DNA from: Acidimicrobiia bacterium
GTDB taxonomy: Bacteria > Actinomycetota > Acidimicrobiia > Spongiisociales > ZC4RG35
Reading direction: 5' to 3'
DNA: 64,000 bases
NCBI GenBank assembly: GCA_965216445.1
Contig: OZ244166.1
Location: 1,175,515 to 1,239,514, forward strand
Of the stretch, positions 5,660 through 46,768 are shown one piece after another. The notes beneath the pieces were generated by a model. That model had not been told where the DNA came from and made no database searches. It was given only the letters and a program-made list of their open reading frames with translations. The translations under genes and the position numbers were made by a program. Positions within the stretch are counted from its first letter, which is position 1; every line of letters begins with the position of its first letter.

Positions 5660-6317
5660 AGCCCTATTGGTATTGGCCGTGGTCTTCGCCATTGGCGCCT
5701 GCTCGGGTGGCGGTGATGGATCGGACGAGAATCCCTCGGCAGGTCCGGGTGCATCCAGCGCAGAGGCAGCGGTGTCAGACCTGTTGGTGTTTTTGACTGA
5801 GGGTGACTTCAACGGCGCGGTTTCGCTGGCCATACCGGGCCAGGCTGCGCTTGCTTCGCTGGCTGAAGGGGCTTCGGACGAAGAGGTCGCCTCGTCGCTA
5901 CGGGACAACGACGGTTTGATCGCTGCCAACTTCTGGTCGGGTTTTGCGCAGAGTGTCGCCGACTTCCTGGCACCTGGAGTCGATGTTGTCGGTTCCGACT
6001 CGAGCACCGTCGAGGGTGTCGCCTTCGAGGTGGTTGACGTGATGACAGCAGGCGGAGTGACCCGTCAGCTGACCACTCGAGATGTCGATGGCTACCGAAT
6101 CGACATCTTCGCCACATTCGGACCGGGCCTTGCGAGTCGCCTCTATCCCCAGGTTGAACGGTTGCAGTCGTCGCCAACCGAAGACGCTGAACTCATATTG
6201 GCCGGCCTGCGCGACCAGGTCCCATCGCTGGCTATGGCGGCACAAACCCCAGATCTGGCGCCGAATGTTGTCCAGGACATCATCCAGCTGATCGAGTTGA
6301 TAACCCGCGTCAGCTAG
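5643..6317 (+). CDS. hypothetical lipoprotein
   Basis: Signal peptide with lipobox (LAVVFAIGAC) followed by a Gly/Ser-rich linker. Confidence 0.5.
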   Translation: MKMLGRALLVLAVVFAIGACSGGGDGSDENPSAGPGASSAEAAVSDLLVFLTEGDFNGAVSLAIPGQAALASLAEGASDEEVASSLRDNDGLIAANFWSGFAQSVADFLAPGVDVVGSDSSTVEGVAFEVVDVMTAGGVTRQLTTRDVDGYRIDIFATFGPGLASRLYPQVERLQSSPTEDAELILAGLRDQVPSLAMAAQTPDLAPNVVQDIIQLIELITRVS

Positions 6318-9687: not shown

Positions 9688-10029
9688 CGAGTTCGTCGGA
9701 CGGCCGCGGCGTGGGGATCCCCCAGGTCGAGGAAAGTCCGGACTCCACAGGGCATGGTGCTGGGTAACACCCAGGCGGGGTGACCCGACGGAAAGTGCAG
9801 CAGAAAGCAAACCGCCGATGGTCTTTGGACACAGGCAAGGGTGAAAAGGTGGTGTAAGAGACCACCAGCACTTCGGGTGACCGGAGTGGCTTGTAAACCC
9901 CACCAGGAGCAAGGCCAAGCAGGGATTGATGGCCCGTCGATATCCCGGGTAGGCCGCATGAGCTGACTGGTAACAGTCCGCCAAGATGGATGGTCGTCGC
10001 AACAGAATCCGGCTTATAGACGAACTCGC
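9688..10029 (+). ncRNA. rnpB: RNase P RNA (bacterial type A)
   Basis: Conserved P4 5' strand GAGGAAAGTCCGGACTCCACAGGGCA and P4 3' strand ACAGAATCCGGCTTA. P1 pairing CGAGTTCGTC(9688-9697)/GACGAACTCG(10020-10029). P3-like hairpin GTGGGGATCCCCCA. TAAAAT -10 box at 9675-9680, 7 nt before the predicted 5' end. Ends are +/- 5 nt. Confidence 0.85.
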
Positions 10030-10189
10030 ACTCGTGAAGAAGGCCCCCGATTGTCGGGGGCCTTCGCCTTGTCTTCTCCACGTTCCAAAATCCGGCGAAT
10101 CTACGTTGTCGGCCAATAGCCTGAGGGTGTCCGGAAACCTTTTCCAACCGGAGCAGGTCGAATCCGTGGCTTCAAAGGAGGAGTTGACG

Positions 10190-10837
10190 TTGGTTATCAA
10201 CAAATATCTGGCCGAATTCATGGGGACTTTGATCCTCGTGTTCGGCGGTTCGATGGGGATTCTGGCCGTCGGTGGTGCCAATGGCGCCGCCGAAATGTTG
10301 GCCATTTCCCTGGCATTCGGTATGGCCCTGTTGGCAGGGATTTGGGCACTCGGACATGTCTCTGGTGCTCACTTCAATCCCGCTGTCACCTTGAGCATGC
10401 TCCTAGACGGGCGAATCGGCGTTAGTGACGCAATCGGCTACTGGGTGGGACAGTTCGCCGGTGCAGCGGTAGCGTCGCTTCTGGTGGCGGGAGCCTCATC
10501 CACCGACATCGTTGCCGGCACCATGACGACGTTTACGGATCAGGGGACGGCGATTCTGATGGAGATCGCACTAACCGCGATATTCGTGTGGGTGATCATG
10601 GCGGTTACCAAAACTGGTGCGAACGCAGCCCCGGCCGCAATTGCCCTCACCCTGGTTGGTGTCCATCTTTCGGGTATCCCATTCTCAGGAGCGTCAGTCA
10701 ACCCGGCGCGTTCGTTCGGACCTGCTGTGGTCTCGGGGAACTTCGCTGACTTGTGGGTATACCTCGTGTTCCCGTTGGTCGGTGCTTTGGTGGCCTTCGG
10801 CCTATACCGGCTTTTCCCGGCGCCGGACGAAGCCTGA
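10190..10837 (+). CDS. aqpZ: aquaporin Z (MIP family water channel)
   Basis: Two NPA boxes (HFNPAVT and NPARSFGPAV). Start placed at TTG 10190, 7 nt after a strong AAGGAGGA RBS (10175-10182). The ORF-track start 9986 would run through rnpB. Confidence 0.85.
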   Translation: MVINKYLAEFMGTLILVFGGSMGILAVGGANGAAEMLAISLAFGMALLAGIWALGHVSGAHFNPAVTLSMLLDGRIGVSDAIGYWVGQFAGAAVASLLVAGASSTDIVAGTMTTFTDQGTAILMEIALTAIFVWVIMAVTKTGANAAPAAIALTLVGVHLSGIPFSGASVNPARSFGPAVVSGNFADLWVYLVFPLVGALVAFGLYRLFPAPDEA

Positions 10838-11462: not shown

Positions 11463-12080
11463 GTGAAACGTCTCATTCTCTTTGCGGTATTGGCACTCGT
11501 CGTCGCTGCGTGTGGTGGTTCAGCGGTTTCAGACCAATCCACTGATCCCACTGATCCTGCCAGCACGGAGACAACGTCGACCTCCGATACCCCGGCAACA
11601 ACCGGGTCGGACGGTGAAACTACGACCACACCAGCTGGCGAGACCTCGACCACTTCAGGTCGTGAGGTGGCCCCTGACTTCACTCTGCAGCTCGGTGAAG
11701 GTGGAACCTTCAGTCTTTCAGACAGCTCCAAGCCGGTCTATCTGGTCTTTTGGGCTGAGTGGTGACCAACCTGTCGACGGGAGTTGCCCGTCATCGACAG
11801 AATTGCGGCTGATTACGCCGATCGAATCGACTTCGTCGCCCCTGCGTGGAAGTCGTCGTTCGCGGCCACAGAGGAGCGTGCCAATGAACTGCTCCAGTCG
11901 GGCGTGATCATGTGGGGTTTGGACGAAGATGAAGAGATATTCTCGCTGTATGGAGTCCCTTACCAGCCGGTCACAGTACTGATCGCTGGCGACGACACAG
12001 TGGTCGAAGCCTGGCCCGGTCTCAGGGACGAGGCGGAGATTCGTGCCGCCCTGGATGCGCTCATAGCGCTGACGAGCTAA
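11463..12080 (+). CDS. TlpA-like thioredoxin-fold lipoprotein, predicted selenoprotein with in-frame UGA (Sec) at 11763-11765 (UXXC active site)
   Basis: ORFs 11463..11765 and 11784..12080 share one frame and are separated only by TGA. Read-through gives ...APDFTLQLGEGGTFSLSDSSKPVYLVFWAEW-U-PTCRRELPVIDRIAADYADRIDFVAPAW...FSLYGVPYQPVTVLIAGDDTVVEAWPG. This is a complete TlpA/ResA fold with TGA exactly at the first Cys of W-C-x-x-C. N-terminal signal peptide with lipobox (LVVAAC) and Thr/Ser-rich linker. SECIS-like hairpin directly downstream. Confidence 0.6.
11771..11800 (+). promoter_or_regulatory. candidate bacterial SECIS hairpin for UGA 11763-11765
   Basis: CTGTCGA-CGGG-[AGTTG]-CCCG-TCA-TCGACAG: 11 bp in two helical segments with a 3-nt bulge. 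Apical loop contains G and U about 20 nt after the UGA, within the usual bSECIS window. Confidence 0.45.
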
Positions 12081-12529: not shown

Positions 12530-13975
12530 TTGAGAAGATTCGAACTCCTTCTCCTTTTCGCCGGACTGTTCGCCGTGGCGTGGCCAGCGGTTTTTGGCGT
12601 CCGACCACGCCGCGGGATTGCTTCGACGCTGCTCGTGGCCGCTTTCGTCGCGCATCTTCAGATCGAGGGTCTTCGTTGGCAACTGATCCCGTTGTATCTG
12701 GCCACGTTTGGTTTGGTTATCGGCGACATCGTGTTTCTCGACAGGGAGCTTCGTTGGCCACGGCGTGTCGCCAGAGGTGTTTTTGGGGTCGTTGGCTTGC
12801 TTCTGGTGGCCTCGCTCGGCTGGTTGCTTCCCGTACCCGAATTGCCAACTCCGACTGGGACGGAAGTCATCGGGACGGTTGTGGTCGAGGTCATCGACAG
12901 GGACCGGCCCGAGATCTACGGGCTGCAACCCGGGCAGGAGACTGGAGGAGATCGTCGATTCGTGGCCCAGGTCTGGTACCCAGCTGGTGATCCCGGAGAC
13001 GCTGAACCACAGGGTGTCCATCCGGATTGGCCGATAGTTGGCTCTGAGCTGGCACTGGACATCGGTTTTCCTGGCTGGTTTCTCAGTCATGTCAAATACA
13101 CGGATTCCCACTCGTTCGACTCGCTGCCAGTGGCTCCAGGAACGTATCCAGTGGTGCTCTACAGCCACGGATGGACTGGATATCGATCGATCGGTTTGAA
13201 CCAGATCGAGTCCCTGGTTTCCAACGGGTACATCGTCATCGCACCGGATCACACCTATGGGGCTGTGGCGACGGTGTTCAACGACGGCGAGGTCGTGACC
13301 TATGACCCATCTGCCCTGCCTGACGAGACCACTGTGAGTGATACTCAATACCGGGAGTCATCGGAGATGCTGGTCGAGACGTTCGCTGGTGACTTGTTGA
13401 AAATCCTCGACGAACTTGATCTCGGTGTCGAGGGTGACTTCGGTACCTTGACAGACAGTATGGACCTGACCCGCGTCGGCGTCTTCGGCCATTCGACAGG
13501 CGGGGGAGCCGCGATGCGTGTTTGCCTCGTTGACGAACGTTGTGACGCGGTATTGGGGATGGATGCCTGGGTCGAACCTCTTCCTGATCGAATCCTGGCC
13601 GAGACCCTGCAGCAGCCGTCACTGCAGATGCGGTCGGCTGAATGGCAGGCAAAACCAAATGACGCCATCCTGCGCGGGATTTCGGAACGCAGTGAAGAGG
13701 TTGCCTACTGGATAGGCATCGACGGCACCGGTCACAACGACTTTGTGATGACACCTCTTTTCTCGCCGGTTGCTGACGAGTTGGGGCTCCGGGGGCCAAT
13801 CCCGGCAGGTCGGATAATCCCGATCATCAACCAGTATCTCGTCGGATTCTTTGACGTCTTCCTGCTCGGAACAGGACCAGCTGCCATCAACACTGTCACC
13901 TTCGATGAGGTCAGTCTGGAGATCATCCCCGCGGCGAATGTGGGACAAGACGACGAGGCTGGGGATTCTGGCTGA
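12530..13975 (+). CDS. membrane-anchored alpha/beta hydrolase (PAF-acetylhydrolase-like / lipase family)
   Basis: N-terminal TM helices, then a hydrolase domain with YSHGWTG and nucleophile elbow GHSTGG, and later a DGTGHNDF region. Confidence 0.6.
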   Translation: MRRFELLLLFAGLFAVAWPAVFGVRPRRGIASTLLVAAFVAHLQIEGLRWQLIPLYLATFGLVIGDIVFLDRELRWPRRVARGVFGVVGLLLVASLGWLLPVPELPTPTGTEVIGTVVVEVIDRDRPEIYGLQPGQETGGDRRFVAQVWYPAGDPGDAEPQGVHPDWPIVGSELALDIGFPGWFLSHVKYTDSHSFDSLPVAPGTYPVVLYSHGWTGYRSIGLNQIESLVSNGYIVIAPDHTYGAVATVFNDGEVVTYDPSALPDETTVSDTQYRESSEMLVETFAGDLLKILDELDLGVEGDFGTLTDSMDLTRVGVFGHSTGGGAAMRVCLVDERCDAVLGMDAWVEPLPDRILAETLQQPSLQMRSAEWQAKPNDAILRGISERSEEVAYWIGIDGTGHNDFVMTPLFSPVADELGLRGPIPAGRIIPIINQYLVGFFDVFLLGTGPAAINTVTFDEVSLEIIPAANVGQDDEAGDSG

Positions 13976-13980
13976 GCTGA

Positions 13981-14580
13981 TTACTCGGAAGGTCTTTGTT
14001 GCGTGTCGCCAGTGACTTGTTGTCCCGGCGTCTCTCCGGCAAGGATGCCGTCAAGTGTGGCGCCGAGGATGAGCGCGTCAGCCTCGCCGATGATCTTGCC
14101 GACCACGGTGCCCTCTTCGTTGATGAAAAACGTCTCGGGAATGCCAAATACCCCGTAGGCAATCGAAGCCCTCCCGCCAGGGTCCGAAAGGTAGATAGTC
14201 GACTCCGACCTTCCCGCTTCATCCAGGTAGGCGATGGCGGTTCCACGGTTCTCGTTGTAGAGGATTTGAACGAACTGGACCCCACGGTCCGCAAAAGCTT
14301 CTGAGGTGGCGACAAAGTCGGCGTGTTCGTTGCGACATTCGGGGCACCAGGAGGCAAAGAAGTTGACCACGGTGACACTCCCGGTAAGTTCCGAAGTGTC
14401 GAACTCCGATTCTTCGTCGAGCAATTGCATGGTGAGCTGTGGTGCCGGCTGACCGAGGAGGGGAGACTGAACGAGACCAGGATCAGAACCGAAACGACTC
14501 GCCAGAACCACTGATAGGACCACAGCCACACCGGCGACCGAAAGACCGACCCATTTCAGAACGCCGCCCCTCACGTGCAC
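13981..14580 (-). CDS. ccmG: thiol:disulfide interchange protein CcmG/DsbE
   Basis: WCPECR active site and the DsbE-specific GVFGIPETFFINEEGTVVGK motif. N-terminal membrane anchor. Last gene of the ccm operon. Confidence 0.75.
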   Translation of the reverse strand: MHVRGGVLKWVGLSVAGVAVVLSVVLASRFGSDPGLVQSPLLGQPAPQLTMQLLDEESEFDTSELTGSVTVVNFFASWCPECRNEHADFVATSEAFADRGVQFVQILYNENRGTAIAYLDEAGRSESTIYLSDPGGRASIAYGVFGIPETFFINEEGTVVGKIIGEADALILGATLDGILAGETPGQQVTGDTQQRPSE

Positions 14581-15593
14581 GCCTGTCCGGCCGAGGCCAG
14601 GTCGAAGTCACTTTGAACTTGGGACCGGGTTTCCTCAGAGAGCTCGGGGTTGGCTAACACCTCGGCGAAGAGCGTCGAAGCCTGCTGGTTGTCACCTGTC
14701 CCGCACCAGATCACTTGACCCTTCAGGTAAAGCGCCACCGTGGACTCGGGCACAATGGCCAGCGCCTCGTCAAACAGAGTCACGGCAGTCTCGACCTCGC
14801 CGTTTCCGTCGTAAGCCATCCAACCCAACCGTATGAGTGCCGTCGAAGCCTCCCCTTCAGTCGATCGTTCGTCCTCAGCTACCTGCAGGTAGAGCGGGAA
14901 GGCTGATCGATAGTCGCCCGCACTGAAATAGCGCTCGGCGAGTGCAACCCGCATCCCATTGACCTGGGGATGGTCGACGTTCGCAGCAATCACCGCCTCC
15001 ATAGTCTCGTTACTCACGCCATCGAGGTTGTCGACGTCGACGCTGGCAGCCCCTGACGTGGTGGCTGGACGATCCTGGATCATCGCGCCGGCTATCAAAA
15101 CGATCAATGCGAAGCCGCCGATCACGATTAGACCGCCGACAAGCCGACGATTGGTAGTTGATGGCGTCGTTTCGTCCTCCAGTCCTCCGCCCTCCGTGGC
15201 CACGGCGGGGCCGGGATGAGCTCGCCACCAGAAAATGACCGCGACGCCGATGGCCAGGGCCGCGATGGGTGCGAGCCAAAGAAACAATGTCGAACCGGAG
15301 GCTGGAGGGTCAAGCAAAACCGAGTTGCTGAACGAGGAGAGCAGTTCGTCGATGATCTCATCGTCGCTGGCTCCGGCGGCAACCCTCTCTTCCACCAGGT
15401 CCATCATGTCGGTAGCCATCTGGGCTGGTGAGTTGGCAATCGACTCACCCTGACAAACAGGGCATTTGATGGCTGTGCCGATCCGTTCGACGCGATCGTC
15501 GGGAGTCTCGGCGGTTGCAACCAGTCCGATCAGCACGAGGGTCAGGACACCGAGAAGAGACCCGACAACGAGATTTCTGGCTCTGTCAGACAT
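14571..15593 (-). CDS. ccmH: cytochrome c-type biogenesis protein CcmH (CXXC) with C-terminal TPR/CcmI-like domain
   Basis: KCPVCQGESIANSPAQMA matches the CcmH LRCPVCQ motif. TM segment, then TPR-like repeats. Start taken at ATG 15593 (MSDRARN...), which overlaps the ccmF stop as ATGTCTGA. The ORF track begins at 15659. Confidence 0.75.
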   Translation of the reverse strand: MSDRARNLVVGSLLGVLTLVLIGLVATAETPDDRVERIGTAIKCPVCQGESIANSPAQMATDMMDLVEERVAAGASDDEIIDELLSSFSNSVLLDPPASGSTLFLWLAPIAALAIGVAVIFWWRAHPGPAVATEGGGLEDETTPSTTNRRLVGGLIVIGGFALIVLIAGAMIQDRPATTSGAASVDVDNLDGVSNETMEAVIAANVDHPQVNGMRVALAERYFSAGDYRSAFPLYLQVAEDERSTEGEASTALIRLGWMAYDGNGEVETAVTLFDEALAIVPESTVALYLKGQVIWCGTGDNQQASTLFAEVLANPELSEETRSQVQSDFDLASAGQACT

Positions 15594-17616
15594 CAGCCGT
15601 TTGACGTTTCGGCACGGTGTTGGGTTCCCCTCGGCGCGAAGTGAGAGCCCAGAAGCCACCCGCTGCCGCCAGCATGCCGCCGACCCACAGCAGCCAGATC
15701 AGCGGCGAAGTATCCAGCGATAGGGTCGCCGCCGGTGAGGTGCCGGGAGGGATACGCAGGGTGAGGTAAAGGTCCCCGCTGGGTCTGGTCAGGACCGATG
15801 GTGTTGTGATGCCCGAACCCGATCGGTAGAAGTTCACGGTTGGTTCCAACGTGGTCACGAAGCGACCCCCACGGAAAACGCTGATACGGACTCCCAAAAC
15901 TGTCCGTTGCGGTTGTTCGGACTGGAATGGGCTCTCGTAGACGAGTTCGTATCCAGCGAAGTTGGTCGATTCACCCGGTTCGAGTTCGACGGTGCTGTGG
16001 ACTCCGAGATTGGCTGCGAATGCAATACCCAGTGCTACCAGCACCACGCCAATGTGGCTCAGTTGGCCTGCCCAGAATGGTGTATCTCCACGTACCACTG
16101 TTCCCACAGCTTCGAGGAGTGACTCGCCCGTCTTATTAGATCTCCGACTCGCCTGTTCGAGTAGAAGTCCGAGGATGACACCGATTACGAAGACAGCGAG
16201 GACCGTCGCCAGGATCACCCATCCCAGTCGGGTCACGGTTAAAGCCACGATCAGTCCCGCAGTCACGGCAATCAACGCCGGGTTGCGAATCTGTCGCCAT
16301 ACGACTTCGGCAGAAGCGTGTCGCCAGGGTGTAATTGGTCCAAAACCCATGACGAGAAGTAGCGCGAAGGAAAGGGGCACAGCGAGACGGTTGAAGAAAG
16401 GCTCGCCGACTCCCACCTGAGTTCCGGTGAATGCTTCCACCAGCAATGGGTAGGTGGTTCCGATCAGGACGACAAATGCATACAGGGTGAGAATCAGGTT
16501 GTTTGCCAGGAAAGTTCCTTCCCGGCTAGCGAACGATTCGATCCGTGGTGCCGAGCTGACCAAATGCGATCTGGTGGCGAAAAGCGTGAATGAACCGACC
16601 AACACCAAAGTCAGGAATCCGAGAAGGGCGGGTCCAATCGCTGACTGTGTGAACGAGTGGACCGAGTTGATCGTCCCCGACCGGGTGAGGAAGGTGCCGA
16701 GGATCGTGAGAGCGAAAGCAGATATCACAAGTACGAAATTCCAGGCCTGGAGCATGTTGCGGCGTTGTTGCACAATCGCCGAGTGGAGGAACGCCGTGGC
16801 AACTAGCCACGGCATCAGCGAAGCGTTTTCCACTGGGTCCCATGCCCAGTATCCACCCCAGGAAAGAACCTCATAAGCCCACCACCCACCGAGAACGATC
16901 CCGAAAGTGAGAAAGCTCCAGGCGACCAGAGTCGACCGATGAGATCTCCGGAGCCAGGCGGGACCGGGAACTTTGAGTGCCAGGGCCGAAATTGCGAAAG
17001 AGAACGGAACGGATAGTCCCACGTAACCGAGGTAGAGCATTGGGGGGTGGATCGCCATCAAGATGTGGTTTTGCAGCAGGTCGTTGGGCCCTGCACCGTC
17101 TGCAGGTGCCTGAATCGATGAGAAGGGCCACGGGCTGGACACTGCGCATGCTCTCTCCGCTGCCTCGACGCACACTTCGAACGGGTTGGAGACTGTGATC
17201 ATCAAGGCAAAGAAGAAGATCCCAATGCCGCCCATTACCGCCAGCGCGCCTGCCCCAAGCCGGTCCGGTGCGGTTTCGTAACGCCTCAGTACCGCCCAGG
17301 TGAAACCGGCCAACACCAAGCCCCACAGCACGATGGATCCTTCGAGTGCTCCCCAGGCGCTGGCGACATTGAATGGGAACGGTGTCGAAGACGCATGGTG
17401 GTTGGCAACGTATGAGATCTGAAAGTCATTCGTCACCAGCGCCAGCTCCAACGCAACCATTGCCACAACGGCACCACTGAGAAGCAACCGCACGGGTGGT
17501 CTGAGGTTCGACACACCCGTTTCGGAGCGGGCGACTGCCACCGCTCTGGCCACGAGAAGAACTGCTCCAACCAGACCTGCTGCGATTCCGATTGTTCCCA
17601 AGAGGGAAAGCAGCAT
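15586..17616 (-). CDS. ccmF: cytochrome c haem lyase subunit CcmF
   Basis: 676 aa polytopic protein with the WWD domain WGGYWAWDPVENASLMPWL. Confidence 0.9.
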   Translation of the reverse strand: MLLSLLGTIGIAAGLVGAVLLVARAVAVARSETGVSNLRPPVRLLLSGAVVAMVALELALVTNDFQISYVANHHASSTPFPFNVASAWGALEGSIVLWGLVLAGFTWAVLRRYETAPDRLGAGALAVMGGIGIFFFALMITVSNPFEVCVEAAERACAVSSPWPFSSIQAPADGAGPNDLLQNHILMAIHPPMLYLGYVGLSVPFSFAISALALKVPGPAWLRRSHRSTLVAWSFLTFGIVLGGWWAYEVLSWGGYWAWDPVENASLMPWLVATAFLHSAIVQQRRNMLQAWNFVLVISAFALTILGTFLTRSGTINSVHSFTQSAIGPALLGFLTLVLVGSFTLFATRSHLVSSAPRIESFASREGTFLANNLILTLYAFVVLIGTTYPLLVEAFTGTQVGVGEPFFNRLAVPLSFALLLVMGFGPITPWRHASAEVVWRQIRNPALIAVTAGLIVALTVTRLGWVILATVLAVFVIGVILGLLLEQASRRSNKTGESLLEAVGTVVRGDTPFWAGQLSHIGVVLVALGIAFAANLGVHSTVELEPGESTNFAGYELVYESPFQSEQPQRTVLGVRISVFRGGRFVTTLEPTVNFYRSGSGITTPSVLTRPSGDLYLTLRIPPGTSPAATLSLDTSPLIWLLWVGGMLAAAGGFWALTSRRGEPNTVPKRQTADV

Positions 17617-18023
17617 CAGCTGTCCTCTACCGGCGTTCCCTCTTCGGGAATGACGTAGTTCTCGTCGTGGCGGATGAGTGCGTTTGTTGCCGCGTAGTCG
17701 TCACCGTCCCAAGATCCGTCGAGAAGTACCGGGACCGTATCGTTGAACAGAGGCGGGGGAGTGTCGGCGAGTCGGACGCTGATTGTTGCTCCACCGTCGG
17801 TGACGTCAAACAAAAGATCGTCTCCAACCTCGACCACGGTCCCCGGCACCACCGAACCGGCCAACCGGAATTGCTCGCCGTCAGGGAACGAATCCCGCTG
17901 GTCCACTGCTTCGGTGGGATAGAGGTAATAAGTCAGGTTGTCATCGAGATTGATCAATGACATTGCCACGATCAGAGCGATGATGCCTCCGATTCCAAGA
18001 AGGACCAGAGATCGATGCTCCAT
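17616..18023 (-). CDS. ccmE: cytochrome c maturation haem chaperone CcmE
   Basis: N-terminal TM anchor then OB-fold. C-terminal LIRHDENYVIPEE matches the CcmE haem-binding HDENY motif. Confidence 0.85.
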   Translation of the reverse strand: MEHRSLVLLGIGGIIALIVAMSLINLDDNLTYYLYPTEAVDQRDSFPDGEQFRLAGSVVPGTVVEVGDDLLFDVTDGGATISVRLADTPPPLFNDTVPVLLDGSWDGDDYAATNALIRHDENYVIPEEGTPVEDS

Positions 18024-18025
18024 TA

Positions 18026-18130
18026 CTACCGCTCCGCTCTCTTGCGACGCAGATGCAGATAGACGGCATAGCCAAGGGTCGACCCGTAGACAACGGCGTA
18101 AGTTGCGATCACGACCAGCGAATCAGACAT
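18026..18130 (-). CDS. ccmD: haem exporter protein CcmD (35 aa, single TM)
   Basis: Not in the ORF track. Minus strand reads ATG TCT GAT ... = MSDSLVVIATYAVVYGSTLGYAVYLHLRRKRAER*, a hydrophobic helix followed by basic residues as in CcmD. The ATG overlaps the ccmC stop as ATGTCTGA, and the stop lies 2 nt before the ccmE ATG. Confidence 0.5.
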   Translation of the reverse strand: MSDSLVVIATYAVVYGSTLGYAVYLHLRRKRAER

Positions 18131-18833
18131 CTTTCACCTCGGACAGCCGTGGGGGTGAAACTGGATCGTTGGCTAGATCGGCGTCGAGTTCGGCCGCCTC
18201 CTCAATCCGTCCGACGTATGTTCGAGCCATGAGAAGTGCGATGTAGAGCACAGTGAACGCAGCGACATTGACCAGCATCGCAACCAGAATCTCGGTTGCG
18301 AGAGTGCTCCCATCGGGTCGAATTGACTGTGTCTGGTGAAGGGTTCGCCAGAGGTTGACCGAGAAGTAAACAAGAGGAACCTGGACAACAGCAACGGTGC
18401 CGAGTATTGCCGCCCGTTTTGCTCGTGTTTCGGGGTCGGCGACCGCCCTTCGCAAGGCGAGATAGCCGATGTAGACGAAGATCATCACCGCCGTTGTGGC
18501 GAGACGTGCGTCGCTCCAGTCCCATGCCTGTCCCCACACGGCCTGACCCCAGACCATCCCTGTGAACACACCGACCACTGAGAAAATGACTCCGATCTCC
18601 GCAGAGGCTGCCGCGAGCCGATCCCATCGCCGGTTCTTGGTCAGCAAGTACAGAACTGAGCCGAGTGCGGTCAATCCGAATGCGAGAAACGCCAGCCACA
18701 AAGTCGGGACGTGGACGTAGATCATTCGGGTGTAGACACCTTGGAGCTGGTCGAGGGGAGCGGTGAATGCCAGGAATGCACCGTAGGCCAGCGCAATCGC
18801 CGCTACGAGAAAGGTCACCTGTACTCGTCTCAT
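18123..18833 (-). CDS. ccmC: haem exporter protein CcmC
   Basis: WGQAVWGQAWDWSDARL is the CcmC WWD motif (WGxxWxWDxR). 236 aa, 6 TM. Confidence 0.9.
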   Translation of the reverse strand: MRRVQVTFLVAAIALAYGAFLAFTAPLDQLQGVYTRMIYVHVPTLWLAFLAFGLTALGSVLYLLTKNRRWDRLAAASAEIGVIFSVVGVFTGMVWGQAVWGQAWDWSDARLATTAVMIFVYIGYLALRRAVADPETRAKRAAILGTVAVVQVPLVYFSVNLWRTLHQTQSIRPDGSTLATEILVAMLVNVAAFTVLYIALLMARTYVGRIEEAAELDADLANDPVSPPRLSEVKDV

Positions 18834-19504
18834 CTGGTTGCTTCCTCAAGGGGTCTCGACAACGCTATCCCGGCTACGAACAGAGCCAAATCGGCTGTGG
18901 TCAACAACAGAATCCATAACAGGATACCGTTGCCTCGTTCCATAGCTTCCAGGACCTGAGAGGCACCGACCACGACGGGTATCAGGAGGGGCGCCACGAT
19001 CAGGGATGCGAGGGAGGATCGGTTCCGTAAGCCGCTGGCGACTTCGCCGGCGAGGGTGGAGAGCATCGCCAGGCCAACCGAAGCAAGTGCACTTGCGAGC
19101 AGAACGGGGAGTGGCCAGCCATCCGGGAGATCTGGGTTGAAGAGGAATACCATCGACATCCACAACACCGCCATGAAGCCCAGCAGCAGCAATGTGGCAG
19201 CAAGGGATCGCCCGAGGAAACGTGCGGCCGGGTCGAGCCCGAGAAGCATTGTCGTGTCCCGTCGTTGCGATGTCTCAGATACCGAGGTTCGTAATGCCAC
19301 CTGCATTCCGTAGAGAATGGCAACGGCCCAGAAAATCGCTGTGCCGAGATCATTGAGCGAGGTCCCGGAGTCTGCAGCGACGATGGAGAAGATCATCATG
19401 GCGACGACTGCAAAGGGAAGGACGATGCGGAACGTGTCACCCAGACGGCGCTCCACGACCAGGTCGACTCTGGCTACCTCAGCGGTCTGACGCCACAAGG
19501 TCAT
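18830..19504 (-). CDS. ccmB: haem exporter membrane protein CcmB
   Basis: 224 aa polytopic ABC-2 type permease. Sits between ccmA and ccmC with ATGA overlaps. Confidence 0.8.
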   Translation of the reverse strand: MTLWRQTAEVARVDLVVERRLGDTFRIVLPFAVVAMMIFSIVAADSGTSLNDLGTAIFWAVAILYGMQVALRTSVSETSQRRDTTMLLGLDPAARFLGRSLAATLLLLGFMAVLWMSMVFLFNPDLPDGWPLPVLLASALASVGLAMLSTLAGEVASGLRNRSSLASLIVAPLLIPVVVGASQVLEAMERGNGILLWILLLTTADLALFVAGIALSRPLEEATR

Positions 19505-20145
19505 GATCTGCGCTCCAGCTGTCCGCCGGTTAGACGCAAGGTTGTCTGGAACACCGGTGAAAGGCCATCGGGCTCGTGGGTGACCGCCACCACACCACCG
19601 CCACGTTCCAATGTGGTTGCAGTGAGGGCATCGACAAGTCCCCGGGAGTCAGCATCCAGCCCGGTGCGCGCCTCATCGAGGAGAAGCAGTTTCGGCTTGG
19701 CCATCAGTAGCCAGGCAACCTCGACCCTTCGCTTCATACCGAAACTGGACTCCGAAACCCGCGTCGAGGCGGCCCGTTCCAAGCCAACGGTGTGCAACGC
19801 CTTTGCTGTTGCCTCCTGGGGGCGACCGGTCAGGGTATTGAAGTGGTTGAGGTTCTCTTCGAGGGTCAGCTCCTCCAACAGACCAGGCGTGTGACTGATG
19901 AGGCCGATCGAGGTTCGAATCTTCCGTATTCCGCTGCTGCCGATGTCAGTGCCCAAGACGGACCCCGAACCGGATCGAGGGCGTATCAGAGTGGCTAGGA
20001 GTCTGAGCAATGTAGTTTTTCCACTTCCGTTGGCGCCGACCACCGCGCACGCTTCACCGGTGCCCAAACTGAAATCGACATCACGGAGGATTGTCTTCCC
20101 GCCGAGGGCGACTGTCACGGAATGCAGGTCAAAGATGCTGCTCAC
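19501..20145 (-). CDS. ccmA: cytochrome c biogenesis ABC ATPase CcmA
   Basis: Walker A GANGSGKTT, signature SFGMKRR, Walker B LLLLDEARTGLD. 214 aa. Confidence 0.8.
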   Translation of the reverse strand: MSSIFDLHSVTVALGGKTILRDVDFSLGTGEACAVVGANGSGKTTLLRLLATLIRPRSGSGSVLGTDIGSSGIRKIRTSIGLISHTPGLLEELTLEENLNHFNTLTGRPQEATAKALHTVGLERAASTRVSESSFGMKRRVEVAWLLMAKPKLLLLDEARTGLDADSRGLVDALTATTLERGGGVVAVTHEPDGLSPVFQTTLRLTGGQLERRS

Positions 20146-20176
20146 GGGTCGAGTCTCCCCGCCTAGTCCAAAACAC

Positions 20177-20839
20177 TCAAGTTGGATTGGGGTCCCGACG
20201 CGAGCCGATCAAGGCGATTGCCAACCCAGCAGCGATCCCAGCGATGTACCAGGCCGTCGGACCCCCGGTCAACGACAGTCGGAAGGGTTCAGTCATCAAT
20301 CGCACCGCTGAAGCGAGTGCCAGTGCGGAACCACCCCGCACTCCGACCGTCCAAGGCAGTCGGGAAACAGCAACAGCTGCTCCGAGCATCCCAAGGGCGG
20401 CGTAGATCTCGACCGGGTGACGGGTGATTGTGCTCCCCGCCTCAGACCATGCCCAAGGGAGAGAAGAAGCGGTTCCCAGGCAGGCACCCCTCCAAAGGCA
20501 GCCGAGGTGCCATCCGGCCAACCCCAGCAAAGCCGTGGGTGCCAGGGCATCGAGAGATCGAAGATGCTTTCCCGTCATCAGGAACAGCGTCACCACAGCA
20601 AAGACAACAGCAGCCGGTGTGTTGACCCCACCCCGGACAATTATCAAATCGCCGAGGTTCGTGATGGGGTTGATGCCCTGTAGGGCCATTGCGGTTACCC
20701 GTCCTCCCAACAATCCCGCAGCGGCCGATCCAAGAAGGGCATCGAATGCTGAATCCGGGACACGCTCTGGCCACAATCTGAGTCCAACCCACATTGCAGC
20801 TACTGCTGTGAGCGCTGCCCACAAGAGTGTGAACTCCAT
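20177..20839 (-). CDS. Lgt-like (prolipoprotein diacylglyceryl transferase family) membrane protein, short form
   Basis: LLGGRVTAMAL and GCLWRGACLGTASSLPWAW resemble the Lgt GGRIGY and GRLGNFINGELWG...LPWA motifs, but the protein is 220 aa against about 290 for Lgt. Its ATG lies 1 nt after the stop of the upstream tlpA-like gene. Confidence 0.4.
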   Translation of the reverse strand: MEFTLLWAALTAVAAMWVGLRLWPERVPDSAFDALLGSAAAGLLGGRVTAMALQGINPITNLGDLIIVRGGVNTPAAVVFAVVTLFLMTGKHLRSLDALAPTALLGLAGWHLGCLWRGACLGTASSLPWAWSEAGSTITRHPVEIYAALGMLGAAVAVSRLPWTVGVRGGSALALASAVRLMTEPFRLSLTGGPTAWYIAGIAAGLAIALIGSRRDPNPT

Positions 20840-20840
20840 C

Positions 20841-21311
20841 TCAGCCGTTCAGGATTTCGTCAATACCGAGTGCAAGCGTCCGATCGTCGATCACACCGAG
20901 ATGGGTATCGACGAGGGCGCCCGTGTCATCGAAGAAAAAGGTGATTGGTGTTCCTATCCCACCAAAGTGGCGAGGCACCGAGCGGTCGCGATCGAAGTAG
21001 TGATCGAACACGAGGCCAAAACTGGCGATGAAATCCTTCGCTCCTGGCTGGCTGTCCTGCACGTCAATCCCGATGAACTCGACGTCGTCACCAAACTGCT
21101 CGTATGCGGCCGTCAGCAATGGTGCCTCGGATCGGCAGGGCCCGCACCAGGAAGCCCATACGTTCACGACTGCCGGTCGCTCCAGGTCGACAAGTATTTG
21201 CTCGAGTTCAGGTCCGGTCGTAGGTGGAAGGTCAGGTAGATCCTGGCCTGCCAGATCGGATCCCGAACAAGCAGACAGGATGATGGCGAGCGCGACGAGG
21301 ATCCTCTTCAC
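20841..21311 (-). CDS. TlpA/ResA-like thiol:disulfide oxidoreductase lipoprotein
   Basis: Signal peptide with lipobox (LAIILSAC), active site WASWCGPCR, thioredoxin fold. First gene of the ccm operon. Confidence 0.75.
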   Translation of the reverse strand: MKRILVALAIILSACSGSDLAGQDLPDLPPTTGPELEQILVDLERPAVVNVWASWCGPCRSEAPLLTAAYEQFGDDVEFIGIDVQDSQPGAKDFIASFGLVFDHYFDRDRSVPRHFGGIGTPITFFFDDTGALVDTHLGVIDDRTLALGIDEILNG

Positions 21312-24778: not shown

Positions 24779-25678
24779 ATGAATTCGAGTCCCCGTTCAG
24801 AGCAGAAGGTCGTTTGGACCCGCGGTCGCGGGTGCATGGAGCTGGCCGAGATCCTGGACAGATCGACCGCTAGTCGAGTCCAGGGGGATATCAGGGCGGG
24901 GGTCATCGAGGCACGGGCCGACTTCGTGGTTGCGAAGAAGATGCCTGGTTCGTTTGACCTAGCGCATGTTGCCGTGCCGGTGGATTTCGAACCCGAGGTT
25001 GTGACCAAAGTCTCAGCCACTGTCGCCGGTGGACCCCATTCACAACTGGCTGCCTTGACTGCTGCCCATATCGCCGAAGTTCTCGATGTGCCACTTGAGA
25101 TCGTCTCGGCGCATCAGGACGCGGACGATGTCGGTTCGGCGATGCGGGTTGTGGCTGAGTTCGGGGACCAATTCCCGGACGCTGAGAGACGCGTTGTCCA
25201 AGCTCAGAACATGAATGAGCTGACCGATACCGCCGACGAAGGCTCGTTGATTGTTGTGGGTGCTCCTGGCGGTTCATGGCTGCGTCGTTCCCGCTTTGGC
25301 TCGGGAGCAAGGATCAAAGGCGCCACGAAAGCGGGTGCGGTGATGGTGCGCAGTGCACCGGACCGTGTCTACAGATTCATGGGAGACCCGGTCTATGTGG
25401 CTCCGATGCTCCATGCTTCCGACACCCTTCGACTCCACGATGAGAAGGTGTTGGCAGTGGCCGACCAGGGTCTGTTGGTTGGGGTGGTCAGACGTAGCGA
25501 TCTTGACGGTGTCGGTAACCAAACGGTCGAGTCGGTCATGGATGAGCCTGTGTCCGCACGGGTCGATGAAACCATCGAGGAAGCGCGTTCTCTCGAGGAC
25601 TTGTTCGGATACGACCCGATACCCGTCACCGACCACGACGAGCGGTTGGTTGGCGGTTTGTCCTTGCCAGCGGCCTGA
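24779..25678 (+). CDS. universal stress protein domain / CBS domain protein
   Basis: USP-like C-terminal motif LIVVGAPGGSWLRRSRFGSGA, followed by a CBS pair (HDEKVLAVADQGLLVGVVRRSDL ... YDPIPVTDHDERLVGGL). An internal ATG (MELAEILD) is an alternative start. Confidence 0.5.
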   Translation: MNSSPRSEQKVVWTRGRGCMELAEILDRSTASRVQGDIRAGVIEARADFVVAKKMPGSFDLAHVAVPVDFEPEVVTKVSATVAGGPHSQLAALTAAHIAEVLDVPLEIVSAHQDADDVGSAMRVVAEFGDQFPDAERRVVQAQNMNELTDTADEGSLIVVGAPGGSWLRRSRFGSGARIKGATKAGAVMVRSAPDRVYRFMGDPVYVAPMLHASDTLRLHDEKVLAVADQGLLVGVVRRSDLDGVGNQTVESVMDEPVSARVDETIEEARSLEDLFGYDPIPVTDHDERLVGGLSLPAA

Positions 25679-38362: not shown

Positions 38363-38364
38363 AG

Positions 38365-38658
38365 TCACGATGTCAAGAGATAGATCACAATAACGTCGGC
38401 GATGACGTGGATGCCAGCAGGGACCAAGAGACCATTCGACCTTCTCCGCACGAGGCCCATCGTTAACCCGAACAGTGTTGCCATAGCTACGCCCGATGCA
38501 CCGCTTGGAAAACCATTCCAGTGGCTTACTCCAAATGCGAGTCCTTGCACGAGGTTGGCGGCCTGGAATCCCCATCCACCCTTAGTGAGCGCGTCAAGAA
38601 AAAGCCCCTCCCGCCCTGATAGTGCTCCGGCTTGCGTCGATTGGCAATCAGGTGTCAT
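38365..38658 (-). CDS. CPBP (CAAX protease/Abi) family C-terminal domain protein, possibly truncated remnant
   Basis: 97 aa. GLAFGVSHWNG and LVPAGIHVIAD match the last two conserved motifs of CPBP intramembrane metalloproteases. The N-terminal two-thirds of the family domain are absent. Confidence 0.35.
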   Translation of the reverse strand: MTPDCQSTQAGALSGREGLFLDALTKGGWGFQAANLVQGLAFGVSHWNGFPSGASGVAMATLFGLTMGLVRRRSNGLLVPAGIHVIADVIVIYLLTS

Positions 38659-46752: not shown

Positions 46753-46768
46753 AGACGGTCGGTCTTCA
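46750..46768. terminator. weak convergent hairpin between merR-like and tgpA-like genes
   Basis: TGAAGAC-GGTCG-GTCTTCA, 7-bp stem. No U-tract. Confidence 0.25.

What the first reader, a model, noticed from the sequence alone, without database searches (positions are those of the whole stretch)
13981..21311. Complete, translationally coupled System I cytochrome c maturation operon (tlpA-lgt-like-ccmABCDEFH-ccmG) in an actinobacterial-type genome
Ten collinear minus-strand genes carry the hallmark motifs of System I: CcmA Walker motifs, CcmC WGxxWxWDxR, CcmE HDENY, CcmF WWD domain, CcmH CPVCQ, CcmG GxPETF. Nearly every junction is a 1-8 nt start/stop overlap. The surrounding gene content looks actinobacterial (F420-type LLM, DUF3040, Cho-like nuclease, trHbO, dcw order with ftsL). 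Actinobacteria are generally described as using System II (ResABC/CcsBA). A full Ccm system here is atypical and could reflect lateral acquisition or an under-sampled lineage. Three thioredoxin-fold paralogs accompany it, two with Cys and one with Sec.
Basis: partly seen in the sequence, partly recalled or inferred. Interest (0 to 1): 0.6.

Follow-up and report, generated by a model that had tools for sequence, protein, structure and literature searches.

The report
Cytochrome c maturation operon, Acidimicrobiia type
This is a complete, ordinary-looking System I (Ccm) machine for attaching haem to c-type cytochromes, and it is common rather than exceptional in the actinobacterial class Acidimicrobiia; the only under-described parts are two accessory genes (a thioredoxin-like lipoprotein paired with a two-cysteine Lgt-like membrane protein) and a nearby selenocysteine thioredoxin-like lipoprotein.

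Summary
Ten collinear minus-strand genes (21311-13981) encode TlpA-like, Lgt-like, CcmA, B, C, D, E, F, H(+TPR) and G. All catalytic residues known from E. coli and Thermus are present, and most junctions overlap by 1-8 nt.

The interpretation "atypical, perhaps laterally acquired" is not supported. The window comes from an Acidimicrobiia genome. The same ccmABCDEF(H/G) operon, often with the same flanking genes, occurs in dozens of Acidimicrobiia and other Actinomycetota genomes: 52 of the 80 best genome loci, out of at least 598 confirmed loci. GC content and codon usage match the rest of the window. CcmF sequences fall into two robust actinobacterial clades.

Two accessory features are less ordinary.
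- The Lgt-like protein has the Lgt fold but lacks the essential Arg143 and Glu151. It carries an invariant CX5C pair on the outer face. It always follows a TlpA-like thioredoxin gene, also in distant lineages without ccm.
- A TlpA-like lipoprotein at 11463-12080 has a conserved in-frame UGA (W-U-P-T-C) followed by a covarying hairpin.

System II genes, ccdA and cytochrome c genes could not be searched in the rest of the genome.

The parts
20841..21311 (-). TlpA/ResA-like thioredoxin-fold lipoprotein (156 aa; lipobox LSAC with Cys15; active site W-C56-G-P-C59)
   Evidence: Pfam Redoxin, AhpC-TSA and Thioredoxin. NCBIfam ResA and DsbE hits are below their cut-offs. Homologous partners precede every 2-Cys Lgt-like gene examined.
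20177..20839 (-). Lgt-fold membrane protein (220 aa) that lacks the Lgt catalytic Arg143 and Glu151 and has an invariant Cys114-X5-Cys120 pair
   Evidence: Pfam LGT 42 bits. AlphaFold2 model with pLDDT 86.6. The only significant Foldseek hit is E. coli Lgt 5AZB, E 1.3e-6. hhalign residue mapping. Family alignment.
19501..20145 (-). ccmA, ABC ATPase (Walker A GANGSGKT, Walker B LLLLDE, degenerate signature SSFGM)
   Evidence: TIGR01189 139 bits, cut-off 131.6. Alignment with E. coli CcmA.
18830..19504 (-). ccmB, divergent ABC permease subunit
   Evidence: Pfam CcmB 40 bits, cut-off 24.9; no NCBIfam hit. Position between ccmA and ccmC is conserved in relatives.
18123..18833 (-). ccmC (His41, WWD W100-R110 with a one-residue insertion, His166)
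   Evidence: TIGR01191 153 bits, below its 186 cut-off. E. coli CcmC 7F02_C, E 1.9e-23. Residue mapping.
18026..18130 (-). ccmD, 34-aa single-helix protein with a basic C-terminus
   Evidence: Read from the sequence. Small ORFs of 33-39 aa sit at the same place in L081, L083, L086 and L087. tblastn gives 50-59% identity in L001, L002, L007 and L027.
17616..18023 (-). ccmE, membrane-anchored haem chaperone (His119-D-E-N-Tyr123)
   Evidence: Pfam CcmE 58 bits. Alignment with E. coli H130DENY134.
15586..17616 (-). ccmF, haem lyase (WWD W253-S266; His190, His278, His320, His521)
   Evidence: Pfam Cytochrom_C_asm plus CcmF_C. Full-length match to the T. thermophilus CcmF structure 6ZMQ, E 4e-112. 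The four E. coli His ligands align.
14571..15593 (-). ccmH fused to a TPR (CcmI-like) C-terminal domain (Cys44-P-V-Cys47)
   Evidence: Pfam CcmH 95 bits plus weak TPR hits. Alignment with E. coli CcmH. The start at 15593 gives the same 8-nt overlap seen in L081, L083, L086 and L087.
13981..14580 (-). ccmG/DsbE, membrane-anchored thiol:disulfide oxidoreductase (W-Cys79-P-E-Cys82; GIPETF)
   Evidence: TIGR00385 98 bits, below its cut-off. Alignment with E. coli CcmG. The start may be GTG 14574, giving a 4-nt overlap and 197 aa as in relatives.
11463..12080 (+). Candidate selenoprotein: TlpA/ResA-like lipoprotein (205 aa; lipobox VAAC; W-Sec101-P-T-Cys104; UGA at 11763-11765)
   Evidence: Read-through ORF. 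Pfam AhpC-TSA and Redoxin with U replaced by C. UGA is conserved in 9 orthologues in 8 loci. The gene lies next to or near ccmG in relatives.
11771..11800 (+). SECIS-like hairpin starting 5 nt after the UGA (upper stem begins 10 nt after), with an invariant AGUU in the apical loop
   Evidence: MFE -22.1 kcal/mol, z -2.86. The upper helix is 98% paired across 10 sequences, with compensatory changes at 2 pairs.

Best explanation
The locus is a functional, canonical System I (His-type CcmE, with CcmH) cytochrome c maturation operon of an Acidimicrobiia bacterium. It was inherited within that class, not recently imported.

The mechanism below is inferred by homology with the E. coli, Rhodobacter and Thermus systems; only the residues are shown here.
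1. CcmC, with CcmD, holds haem b at the outer face of the membrane between His41 and His166 and its WWD loop.
2. CcmC transfers the haem covalently to His119 of the membrane-anchored chaperone CcmE.
3. The CcmAB ATPase releases holo-CcmE.
4. CcmE delivers haem to the WWD site of CcmF (His190 and His320). CcmF carries its own b-haem on His278 and His521.
5. CcmH (C44xxC47, with a TPR apocytochrome-binding domain) and CcmG (C79xxC82) keep the CXXCH cysteines of the apocytochrome reduced.
6. CcmF/H forms the two thioether bonds.

In a monoderm cell all of this happens on the outer face of the cytoplasmic membrane, which fits the membrane anchors of CcmE, CcmG and CcmH and the lipoboxes of the two TlpA-like proteins.

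The upstream TlpA-like and Lgt-fold gene pair is a separate two-gene module that was recruited into the operon in this sub-clade. Most likely it acts in extracytoplasmic thiol chemistry, not in lipoprotein maturation (inferred).
For: - Family assignments for all ten genes.
- Every residue known to be functionally essential in E. coli CcmC, E, F, G and H aligns.
- CcmF matches the Thermus structure end to end, E 4e-112. CcmC matches E. coli 7F02.
- Tight coupling of the genes.
- The ccmABC(D)EF plus H and G operon is conserved in 80 of 80 related loci where the sequence extends far enough.
- 52 of the 80 best loci are Actinomycetota, including complete Acidimicrobiia chromosomes OZ219757, OY730477 and NZ_OZ244925.
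- Flanking genes are shared with relatives.
- GC is flat across the window. Pooled codon-usage distance of the operon is 0.030, against 0.026 mean and 0.033 maximum for same-size control blocks.
- Two actinobacterial CcmF clades each have 60/60 bootstrap support.
- Multihaem CXXCH genes lie next to ccm in L010, L011, L017 and L036.
- A cultured Acidimicrobiia isolate is reported to carry CcmABC (PMC12263773).
Against: - No c-type cytochrome gene and no CcdA/DsbD reductant supplier lie in the 56 kb that were annotated, so substrates and the electron source are assumed to be elsewhere.
- CcmB is very divergent, and the CcmA signature motif is degenerate (SSFGM).
- CcmC has a one-residue insertion in the WWD motif. 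These changes are shared by the whole sub-clade, so they are probably tolerated, but no function has been tested.
- The relationship of the two actinobacterial CcmF clades is unresolved: they are sisters in 37 of 60 bootstraps. Ancient transfer into or within the phylum is therefore not excluded.
- The fraction of Acidimicrobiia genomes that carry ccm was not counted.
Confidence: 0.85

Rival explanations
1. The operon was recently acquired by lateral transfer from a Gram-negative donor (Proteobacteria, Deinococcota or Gemmatimonadota).
For: Reviews assign System I to Gram-negatives and System II to Gram-positives and mycobacteria. In one NJ topology the second actinobacterial CcmF clade groups with Gemmatimonadota, Myxococcota and Deinococcales.
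Against: - GC and codon usage are the same as the flanks.
- The nearest homologues at 50-77% identity are all Acidimicrobiia, while Gemmatimonadota, Deinococcales and Myxococcota reach about 40% and E. coli is a distant outgroup.
- Flanks are conserved in relatives.
- No mobile-element genes are adjacent.
Confidence: 0.04
2. The genes serve only haem export or detoxification, or a dedicated NrfEFG-type lyase for one special cytochrome, and not general cytochrome c maturation.
For: A paper on a cultured Acidimicrobiia isolate describes CcmABC as a haem exporter against haem toxicity (PMC12263773). CcmF also scores with the NrfE models.
Against: - The full set of CcmE, CcmF, CcmH and CcmG is present with all haem-ligand and CXXC residues.
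- No nrfA or other cytochrome gene is linked here.
- The NrfE-specific models are far below their cut-offs: 378 against 927 bits.
Confidence: 0.06
3. Accessory pair, reading A. The TlpA-like lipoprotein and the 2-Cys Lgt-fold protein form an extracytoplasmic thiol-disulfide relay. The membrane protein's CX5C pair, in the lipid-facing cavity at the outer face, exchanges electrons with the TlpA CGPC site, analogous to DsbB/VKOR with DsbA, or it is kept reduced by TlpA. In this sub-clade the relay feeds or balances the Ccm thiol pathway.
For: - Arg143, Asn146, Glu151, Glu202 and Tyr235 of E. coli Lgt are replaced. Two invariant Cys occupy positions 146 and 152. R143 and E151 mutants of Lgt are inactive (PMC4728403).
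- More distant relatives lose the RHP and R239/E243/R246 motifs too, yet keep the CX5C pair.
- In all 12 informative contexts a homologous TlpA-like gene sits immediately upstream, often with a 1-4 nt junction, with or without ccm nearby.
- Control Lgt types that keep Arg143 sit next to lspA with no thioredoxin gene.
Against: - No biochemical data exist.
- A single Cys pair near the outer face gives no obvious route for electrons from the cytoplasm.
- A CGPC site suggests a reductant, and menaquinol could not reduce it.
- The pair is missing next to ccm in close relatives L001, L003, L007 and L027, so it is not required in cis.
- The Cys pair could simply be a structural disulfide.
Confidence: 0.35
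4. Accessory pair, reading B. The Lgt-like protein is still a lipid transferase, a dedicated or alternative Lgt that lipidates the co-encoded TlpA-like lipoprotein and possibly the Sec lipoprotein. It would use a modified active site.
For: - It has the Lgt fold.
- It retains Arg180, Glu184 and Arg187 (equivalent to R239, E243, R246), the RHP motif and Tyr146.
- The upstream TlpA has a lipobox, as do most partner proteins.
- H103 is not conserved even in genuine actinobacterial Lgt (PMC13251419).
Against: - The absolutely conserved Arg143 is His, Gln or Glu, and Glu151 is Ala.
- The distant sub-family lacks all Lgt catalytic residues but keeps the pairing with the thioredoxin gene.
- One partner (L092) has no lipobox Cys.
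- In L089 a canonical 297-aa Lgt (GRWGNWFNQELFG) lies two genes away, so the 2-Cys form is an extra paralogue there.
Confidence: 0.2

Closest known systems
E. coli CcmABCDEFGH (System I; structures 7F02, 8CE1 and others)
   Same: Same eight functions, same ccmA-F order and translational coupling. The residues kept are CcmC His60/His184 and WWD; CcmE H130xxxY134; CcmF His173/261/303/491 and WWD; the CcmG CPxC and GxPETF motifs; the CcmH CPxC motif; and a CcmH-TPR fusion.
   Different: - Identity is only 25-35%.
- Gene order is F-H-G instead of F-G-H.
- CcmD is 34 aa instead of 69 aa.
- The CcmA signature is SSFGM.
- CcmB lacks the DGSLE motif.
- CcmC has a one-residue insertion in the WWD motif.
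- The host is a monoderm.
- Extra TlpA-like and Lgt-like genes lie upstream.
Thermus thermophilus CcmF (PDB 6ZMQ) and Deinococcus-Thermus System I
   Same: Full-length CcmF alignment, E 4e-112, with a near-identical WWD segment. It is another System I outside the Proteobacteria.
   Different: Deinococcales operons have F-G-H order and about 38-40% CcmF identity. They fall outside the window's clade.
System I* (archaea, Desulfovibrio: Cys-type CcmE, no CcmH)
   Same: Shares the CcmABCEF core.
   Different: The window has His-type CcmE (HDENY) and a CcmH, so it is classical System I and not I* (definition in PMC3601427).
System II (ResABC/CcsBA with CcdA and ResA/CcsX) of Mycobacterium, Corynebacterium and Bacillus
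   Same: Same end result. Both use TlpA/ResA-like thioredoxin-fold reductants on the outer face of a monoderm membrane. CcmC and CcmF share the Cytochrom_C_asm domain with CcsA.
   Different: No ResB/CcsB or CcsA gene lies in the window. Haem handling here goes through CcmE. Presence of System II elsewhere in this genome was not testable.
Lgt, phosphatidylglycerol:prolipoprotein diacylglyceryl transferase (E. coli, PDB 5AZB/5AZC)
   Same: Same seven-helix fold (Foldseek E 1.3e-6, TM 0.67). Above the Pfam PF01790 threshold. Retains the equivalents of R239, E243, R246, RHP and Y201.
   Different: - 220 aa, with a shortened head domain.
- The signature G142-R-L-G-N-F-I-N-G-E-L-W-G154 reads W-H-L-G-C-L-W-R-G-A-C-L-G.
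- The essential Arg143, Glu151 and Gly142 are replaced, and two invariant Cys are gained.
- It is linked to a thioredoxin gene and not to lspA.
DsbB-DsbA, VKOR-MdbA and CcdA-ResA membrane/thioredoxin-fold redox pairs
   Same: The gene pair consists of a polytopic membrane protein with conserved cysteines plus an extracytoplasmic thioredoxin-fold partner. There is also an association with cytochrome c maturation.
   Different: The fold is unrelated (Lgt fold). There is a single CX5C pair and not two pairs or two trans-membrane Cys. No activity has been shown, so this is an analogy only.
Thioredoxin-like bacterial selenoproteins (for example NCBIfam Rcas_1661 selenolipoprotein family and the ResA-like WAxxUGC family)
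   Same: Thioredoxin-fold lipoprotein with Sec in the first position of the redox motif (UxxC), and a hairpin after the UGA.
   Different: It scores far below the cut-offs of both curated families: 25.6 against 190 bits and 21.9 against 300 bits. Its motif is FWAEW-U-P-x-C.

Membership tests
System I (Ccm) cytochrome c maturation | CcmA ABC ATPase with Walker A and B motifs, plus the CcmB permease | tested here: met
   TIGR01189 is above its cut-off. Walker A is GANGSGKT and Walker B is LLLLDE. CcmB passes Pfam at 40 bits only. The ABC signature is degenerate (SSFGM).
System I (Ccm) cytochrome c maturation | CcmC with a WWD motif and two flanking His haem ligands (E. coli H60, H184) | tested here: met
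   His41 and His166 align. The WWD motif is present with a one-residue insertion that is shared by the sub-clade.
System I (Ccm) cytochrome c maturation | CcmE with the covalent haem-binding His and axial Tyr (HxxxY) | tested here: met
   His119-D-E-N-Tyr123 aligns with E. coli H130DENY134.
System I (Ccm) cytochrome c maturation | CcmF with a WWD domain and four conserved His (two for the b-haem, two flanking WWD) | tested here: met
   His190, His278, His320 and His521 align with E. coli H173, H261, H303 and H491. Full-length match to 6ZMQ.
System I (Ccm) cytochrome c maturation | CcmH with a CXXC motif, and CcmG with CXXC plus GxPETF | tested here: met
   CcmH has IKCPVCQGESIANS. CcmG has WCPEC and GIPETF.
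System I (Ccm) cytochrome c maturation | Supply of reductant across the membrane (DsbD or CcdA), and presence of CXXCH apocytochrome substrates | not testable with these tools
   Neither was found in the 56 kb of the window that was annotated. Multihaem genes lie next to ccm in relatives L010, L011, L017 and L036.
System I (Ccm) cytochrome c maturation | Actual holocytochrome c formation | not testable with these tools
   Requires an experiment.
System I* variant | Cys instead of His in CcmE, and no CcmH | tested here: not met
   CcmE is the His type and CcmH is present.
Lgt (prolipoprotein diacylglyceryl transferase) | Seven-helix Lgt fold | tested here: met
   AlphaFold2 model with pLDDT 86.6. 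5AZB is the only significant PDB match.
Lgt (prolipoprotein diacylglyceryl transferase) | Signature motif G-R-x-G-N-x-x-N-x-E-x-x-G with the essential Arg143, Glu151 and Gly142 | tested here: not met
   Arg143 is His, Asn146 is Cys, Glu151 is Ala and Gly142 is Trp, across the family. The essentiality of these residues comes from PMC4728403.
Lgt (prolipoprotein diacylglyceryl transferase) | The R239/E243/R246 network | tested here: met
   Arg180, Glu184 and Arg187 are (nearly) invariant. They are lost in the more distant 2-Cys sub-family.
Lgt (prolipoprotein diacylglyceryl transferase) | Genomic association with lipoprotein maturation genes (lspA) | tested here: not met
   The gene always follows a TlpA-like gene. 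Control Lgt types that keep Arg143 are next to lspA.
Bacterial selenoprotein | An in-frame UGA conserved among orthologues at a redox-active position where paralogues have Cys | tested here: met
   UGA is in the same codon in the window and 9 orthologues. The paralogous TlpA and CcmG have Cys there.
Bacterial selenoprotein | SECIS stem-loop immediately downstream of the UGA | tested here: met
   The hairpin has z -2.86. The upper helix is 98% paired, with two covarying pairs and an invariant AGUU loop. The overlap with coding sequence limits the strength of this test. No Rfam model matched.
Bacterial selenoprotein | selA, selB, selD and tRNA-Sec in the genome | not testable with these tools
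   None were found in the window, and no tRNA gene at all.

The most novel reading that the evidence does not exclude
The TlpA-like lipoprotein and the 2-Cys Lgt-fold membrane protein form a previously undescribed two-gene module. In it, the lipid-binding Lgt scaffold has lost its diacylglyceryl-transferase residues and acquired a conserved CX5C pair on the outer face. It would work with its thioredoxin-fold partner as an extracytoplasmic thiol-disulfide (or Cys-dependent) system, a functional analogue of DsbB/VKOR or CcdA. In one Acidimicrobiia sub-clade the module has been wired into the System I operon, alongside a selenocysteine-containing TlpA paralogue.
Probability: 0.3. Interest if true: 0.7.

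Novelty: new member of a known kind. Interest (0 to 1): 0.35.

Why it matters
- **Main finding.** It corrects a textbook simplification, namely that Gram-positives and Actinobacteria use System II. A whole, environmentally abundant actinobacterial class commonly carries the multi-protein System I, working on a monoderm envelope. This matters for reconstructing how the two systems spread, and for interpreting cytochrome-rich metabolisms in Acidimicrobiia. It is a matter of under-reporting, not new biology, because annotation pipelines already name these genes.
- **Accessory pair.** The more promising lead is the thioredoxin-fold plus 2-Cys Lgt-fold pair. If it is a redox module, it would add a new membrane scaffold to the small set known to move or handle thiol redox equivalents outside the cytoplasm (DsbB, VKOR, DsbD/CcdA). 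It would also caution against annotating every PF01790 protein as Lgt.
- **Selenoprotein.** The Sec-TlpA lipoprotein adds an uncurated selenoprotein family linked to cytochrome maturation.

Tried and rejected
- The exact-sequence look-up of the window's CcmF (P0001) to obtain the record name found nothing, so the organism is known only as Acidimicrobiia-like, from its homologues.
- Literature searches linking Acidimicrobiia with ccm or cytochrome c maturation returned nothing. One passing mention of CcmABC in a cultured isolate turned up later. The Kranz 2009 review is not held.
- A PDB sequence search with the Lgt-like protein found nothing. The link to Lgt needed Pfam, hhalign and a fold search.
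- The CGGCH motif in the ORF at 4409-5116 was considered as a possible cytochrome c. It was rejected because it lies in a C4 zinc-ribbon of a CT398-like protein.
- Rfam has no match for the SECIS-like hairpin.
- Curated selenoprotein and ResA/DsbE NCBIfam models are all below their cut-offs for the Sec protein.
- I considered using the last protein search to look for a canonical Lgt or System II protein on the same 2,609,530-bp contig. I dropped this because only the 120 best hits are listed and no close query was available.
- The BLOSUM-distance NJ tree suggested that clade B groups with Gemmatimonadota and Myxococcota. The bootstrap with Kimura distances did not uphold this: A+B grouped in 37/60 replicates and B+others in 10/60. 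I therefore make no claim about the deep branching.

Full report
**1. What is in the sequence**

Positions 21311 to 13981 carry ten collinear genes on the minus strand. Pfam and NCBIfam assign them as follows.

| Gene | Coordinates | Assignment and motifs |
|---|---|---|
| tlpA-like | 21311-20841 | Thioredoxin-fold TlpA/ResA-like protein; WCGPC; lipobox LSAC |
| lgt-like | 20839-20177 | 220-aa member of the Lgt family; PF01790, 42 bits |
| ccmA | 20145-19501 | TIGR01189 above its cut-off |
| ccmB | 19504-18830 | Pfam only, 40 bits |
| ccmC | 18833-18123 | |
| ccmD | 18130-18026 | 34 codons; read directly |
| ccmE | 18023-17616 | |
| ccmF | 17616-15586 | |
| ccmH | 15593-14571 | C-terminal TPR region |
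| ccmG | 14580 or 14574 to 13981 | |

Junctions:
- Overlaps: A/B 4 nt, B/C 4 nt, C/D 8 nt, E/F 1 nt, F/H 8 nt, H/G 4 or 10 nt.
- Gaps: tlpA/lgt-like 1 nt, D/E 2 nt, lgt-like/ccmA 31 nt.

I fetched the E. coli ccm operon and aligned each protein pairwise. Every residue known to matter is present.

| Protein | Residues in the window | E. coli equivalents |
|---|---|---|
| CcmC | His41, His166 and the WWD loop | H60, H184 |
| CcmE | His119-DEN-Tyr123 | H130, Y134 |
| CcmF | His190, His278, His320, His521 and WGGYWAWDPVENAS | H173, H261, H303, H491 |
| CcmG | WCPEC and GIPETF | |
| CcmH | CPVCQ | |

CcmF aligns over its whole length with the solved Thermus thermophilus CcmF (6ZMQ, E 4e-112). CcmC aligns with E. 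coli CcmC (7F02, E 2e-23).

Small deviations are a one-residue insertion in the CcmC WWD motif (W-S-D-A-R), a degenerate ABC signature in CcmA (SSFGM) and a very divergent CcmB. All three are shared by the relatives of this sub-clade.

**2. Whose genome this is, and whether the operon is unusual there**

- The window's CcmF is 100% identical to a protein on a 2.6-Mb contig in NCBI/ENA. It has dozens of cluster representatives at 67-77% identity, and those that carry names are from Acidimicrobiia.
- Of the best 80 loci, 35 are labelled Acidimicrobiia or its orders and families, 13 are unclassified Actinomycetota, and 4 are named Actinomycetes (Haloechinothrix, Tersicoccus, Amycolatopsis, Pseudonocardia).
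- The remainder are Gemmatimonadota, Myxococcota, Deinococcales and a few others, at about 40% identity.
- tblastn of the window's proteins against these loci shows the ccmABC(D)EF block everywhere. In the window's clade it is followed by H-G; in the other Acidimicrobiales and in the non-actinobacterial groups it is followed by G-H.
- The flanks are also shared: a Cho-like RNase_T/GIY-YIG nuclease upstream and a PAF-acetylhydrolase-like hydrolase downstream.
- GC is flat across the window.
- GC3 and synonymous codon usage of the operon genes lie within the range of 52 other window genes. The pooled distance is 0.030, against 0.026 mean and 0.033 maximum for control blocks of equal size.
- A neighbour-joining tree of 82 CcmF sequences gives two actinobacterial clades, each with 60/60 bootstrap support. 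Clade A holds the window, many Acidimicrobiia, the Pseudonocardiales and Tersicoccus sequences and one Microthrixaceae sequence. Clade B holds Iamia, Poriferisodalis and other Acidimicrobiales. Whether the two are sisters is unresolved at 37/60.

There is thus no sign of recent transfer, and System I is common in the class. The conclusion "atypical here" is not.

In the held literature I found only one passing mention: CcmABC described as a "heme exporter" in a cultured Acidimicrobiia isolate (PMC12263773).

**3. How it most likely works**

By homology, with only the residues shown here:
1. CcmCD presents haem at the outer face and loads it covalently on CcmE His119.
2. CcmAB releases holo-CcmE.
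3. CcmF/H receives the haem at its WWD site and forms the thioether bonds.
4. CcmH and CcmG keep the apocytochrome CXXCH motif reduced.

The His-type CcmE and the presence of CcmH make this classical System I and not System I*. The window holds no CXXCH cytochrome and no CcdA/DsbD. Relatives do have multihaem genes next to ccm. System II genes elsewhere in the genome could not be looked for.

**4. The Lgt-like gene**

- Its AlphaFold2 model (pLDDT 86.6) matches only E. coli Lgt among solved structures (5AZB, E 1.3e-6; the next hit has E 0.74).
- A profile alignment with E. coli Lgt maps the Lgt signature G142-R-L-G-N-F-I-N-G-E-L-W-G154 onto W-H-L-G-C-L-W-R-G-A-C-L-G.
- The essential Arg143, Glu151 and Gly142 are therefore replaced; all mutants of these residues are inactive in E. 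coli (PMC4728403). Two invariant cysteines (Cys114, Cys120) occupy positions 146 and 152, at the end of TM4 and the following head loop, which is the outer face.
- The R239/E243/R246 equivalents and the RHP motif are kept.
- In every context sampled for this family the gene directly follows a TlpA-like gene. This holds for the window, L004, L009, L029, L081-L083, L086 and L087. In L081 and L083 an arginine operon separates the pair from the Cho-like gene, yet the pair stays attached to ccmA.
- A profile search of 1.84 billion representatives found a more distant sub-family. It has lost RHP and the R239/E243/R246 triad as well, but keeps the CX5C pair.
- In all three informative contexts of that sub-family (L089/L090, L092, L094) the gene again follows a homologous TlpA-like gene, with 4-nt overlaps in two of them and no ccm nearby. 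In L089 a canonical Lgt lies two genes away.
- As a control, Lgt-family proteins that keep Arg143 but have a Cys-rich signature sit next to lspA and have no thioredoxin neighbour.

I conclude that this is an Lgt-fold paralogue that should not be filed as Lgt. It is functionally tied to its thioredoxin-fold partner. A thiol-redox role is the best guess (about 0.35), and a modified lipid transferase is the main rival (about 0.2). Close relatives L001, L003, L007 and L027 lack the pair next to ccm, so its link to cytochrome maturation is facultative. I found no paper on it.

**5. The Sec paralogue**

- On the plus strand at 11463-12080 lies a 205-codon TlpA/ResA-like lipoprotein gene (lipobox VAAC). 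It has an in-frame UGA at 11763, in the motif FWAEW-U-PTC.
- The UGA is conserved in nine orthologues, in L007, L009, L018, L025, L029 (two copies), L081, L082 and L083. In three of these loci the gene lies immediately downstream of ccmG.
- The UGA is followed by a hairpin (11771-11800; -22.1 kcal/mol, z -2.86). Its upper helix is 98% paired across ten sequences, with compensatory changes at two pairs and an invariant AGUU loop.
- Gene callers split the gene at the UGA in relatives.
- It is below the cut-off of all curated selenoprotein families.
- The Sec machinery could not be checked.

**6. Verdict**

- The finding is real and correctly identified.
- Its claimed oddity disappears once relatives are examined. 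It is a new member of a known kind, already named by annotation pipelines but hardly discussed in the literature.
- The TlpA plus 2-Cys Lgt-fold module and the Sec-TlpA lipoprotein are the parts worth following up.

Noticed in passing
window 9688-10032 (+): Bacterial RNase P RNA class A (Rfam RF00010, 313.8 bits, full length). The long ORF at 9986-10837 (MIP aquaporin) overlaps its end, so the true aquaporin start must be further downstream.
   Followed up: partly
window 11463-12080 (+), hairpin 11771-11800: Candidate selenoprotein: a TlpA-like lipoprotein with W-U-P-T-C and a covarying SECIS-like hairpin. It is conserved near ccm in relatives and matches no curated selenoprotein family.
   Followed up: yes
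L089 4501-5714; L092 3462-4834; L094 660-1978: The pair of a thioredoxin-fold gene and a 2-Cys Lgt-fold gene also occurs outside ccm contexts. It is found near a DsbD_TM plus thioredoxin pair and a canonical Lgt (L089), near a P450 (L092), and after a rhodanese gene (L094).
   Followed up: partly
L010 14074-20018; L011 4261-7201; L017 7922-8450; L036 7404-7923: Multihaem CXXCH protein genes lie directly next to the ccm operon in several Actinomycetota and Acidimicrobiia relatives, which suggests cytochrome-rich respiratory or extracellular electron-transfer modules in this phylum.
   Followed up: no
L016, L021, L024, L026: Cultured or named Actinomycetes (Haloechinothrix sp., Tersicoccus phoenicis, Amycolatopsis ultiminotia, Pseudonocardia sp.) carry a complete ccmABCEFHG operon of the same clade as the window. 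These orders are usually assumed to rely on System II, so possible coexistence of both systems is worth checking.
   Followed up: no
window 52704-54383 (+): DEAD-box helicase with a C-terminal RRM_1 domain (E 1e-18), an uncommon combination in bacteria.
   Followed up: no
window 46766-51467 (-): MoxR AAA ATPase, DUF58 and TgpA-like transglutaminase three-gene cluster.
   Followed up: no
window 6329-8008 (-), 5643-6317 (+), 24779-25678 (+), 37706-38575 (-), 43073-43813 (-), 51527-52129 (+): ORFs with coding-like GC phase but no Pfam hit. The first two also have no NCBIfam hit. The 559-aa protein at 6329-8008 is the largest.
   Followed up: no
window 12530-13975 (+): A membrane-anchored PAF-acetylhydrolase/chlorophyllase-like hydrolase lies convergent to ccmG. 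It is conserved at this position in most clade-A relatives (L001, L002, L007, L008, L027, L029, L081-L083, L086, L087). No functional link to ccm is known.
   Followed up: partly
L020 (labelled Gemmatimonadales), L014, L015, L018: A few loci labelled as non-actinobacterial or unclassified MAGs fall inside actinobacterial CcmF clade A. This may reflect mis-binning, missing classification or real transfer.
   Followed up: no
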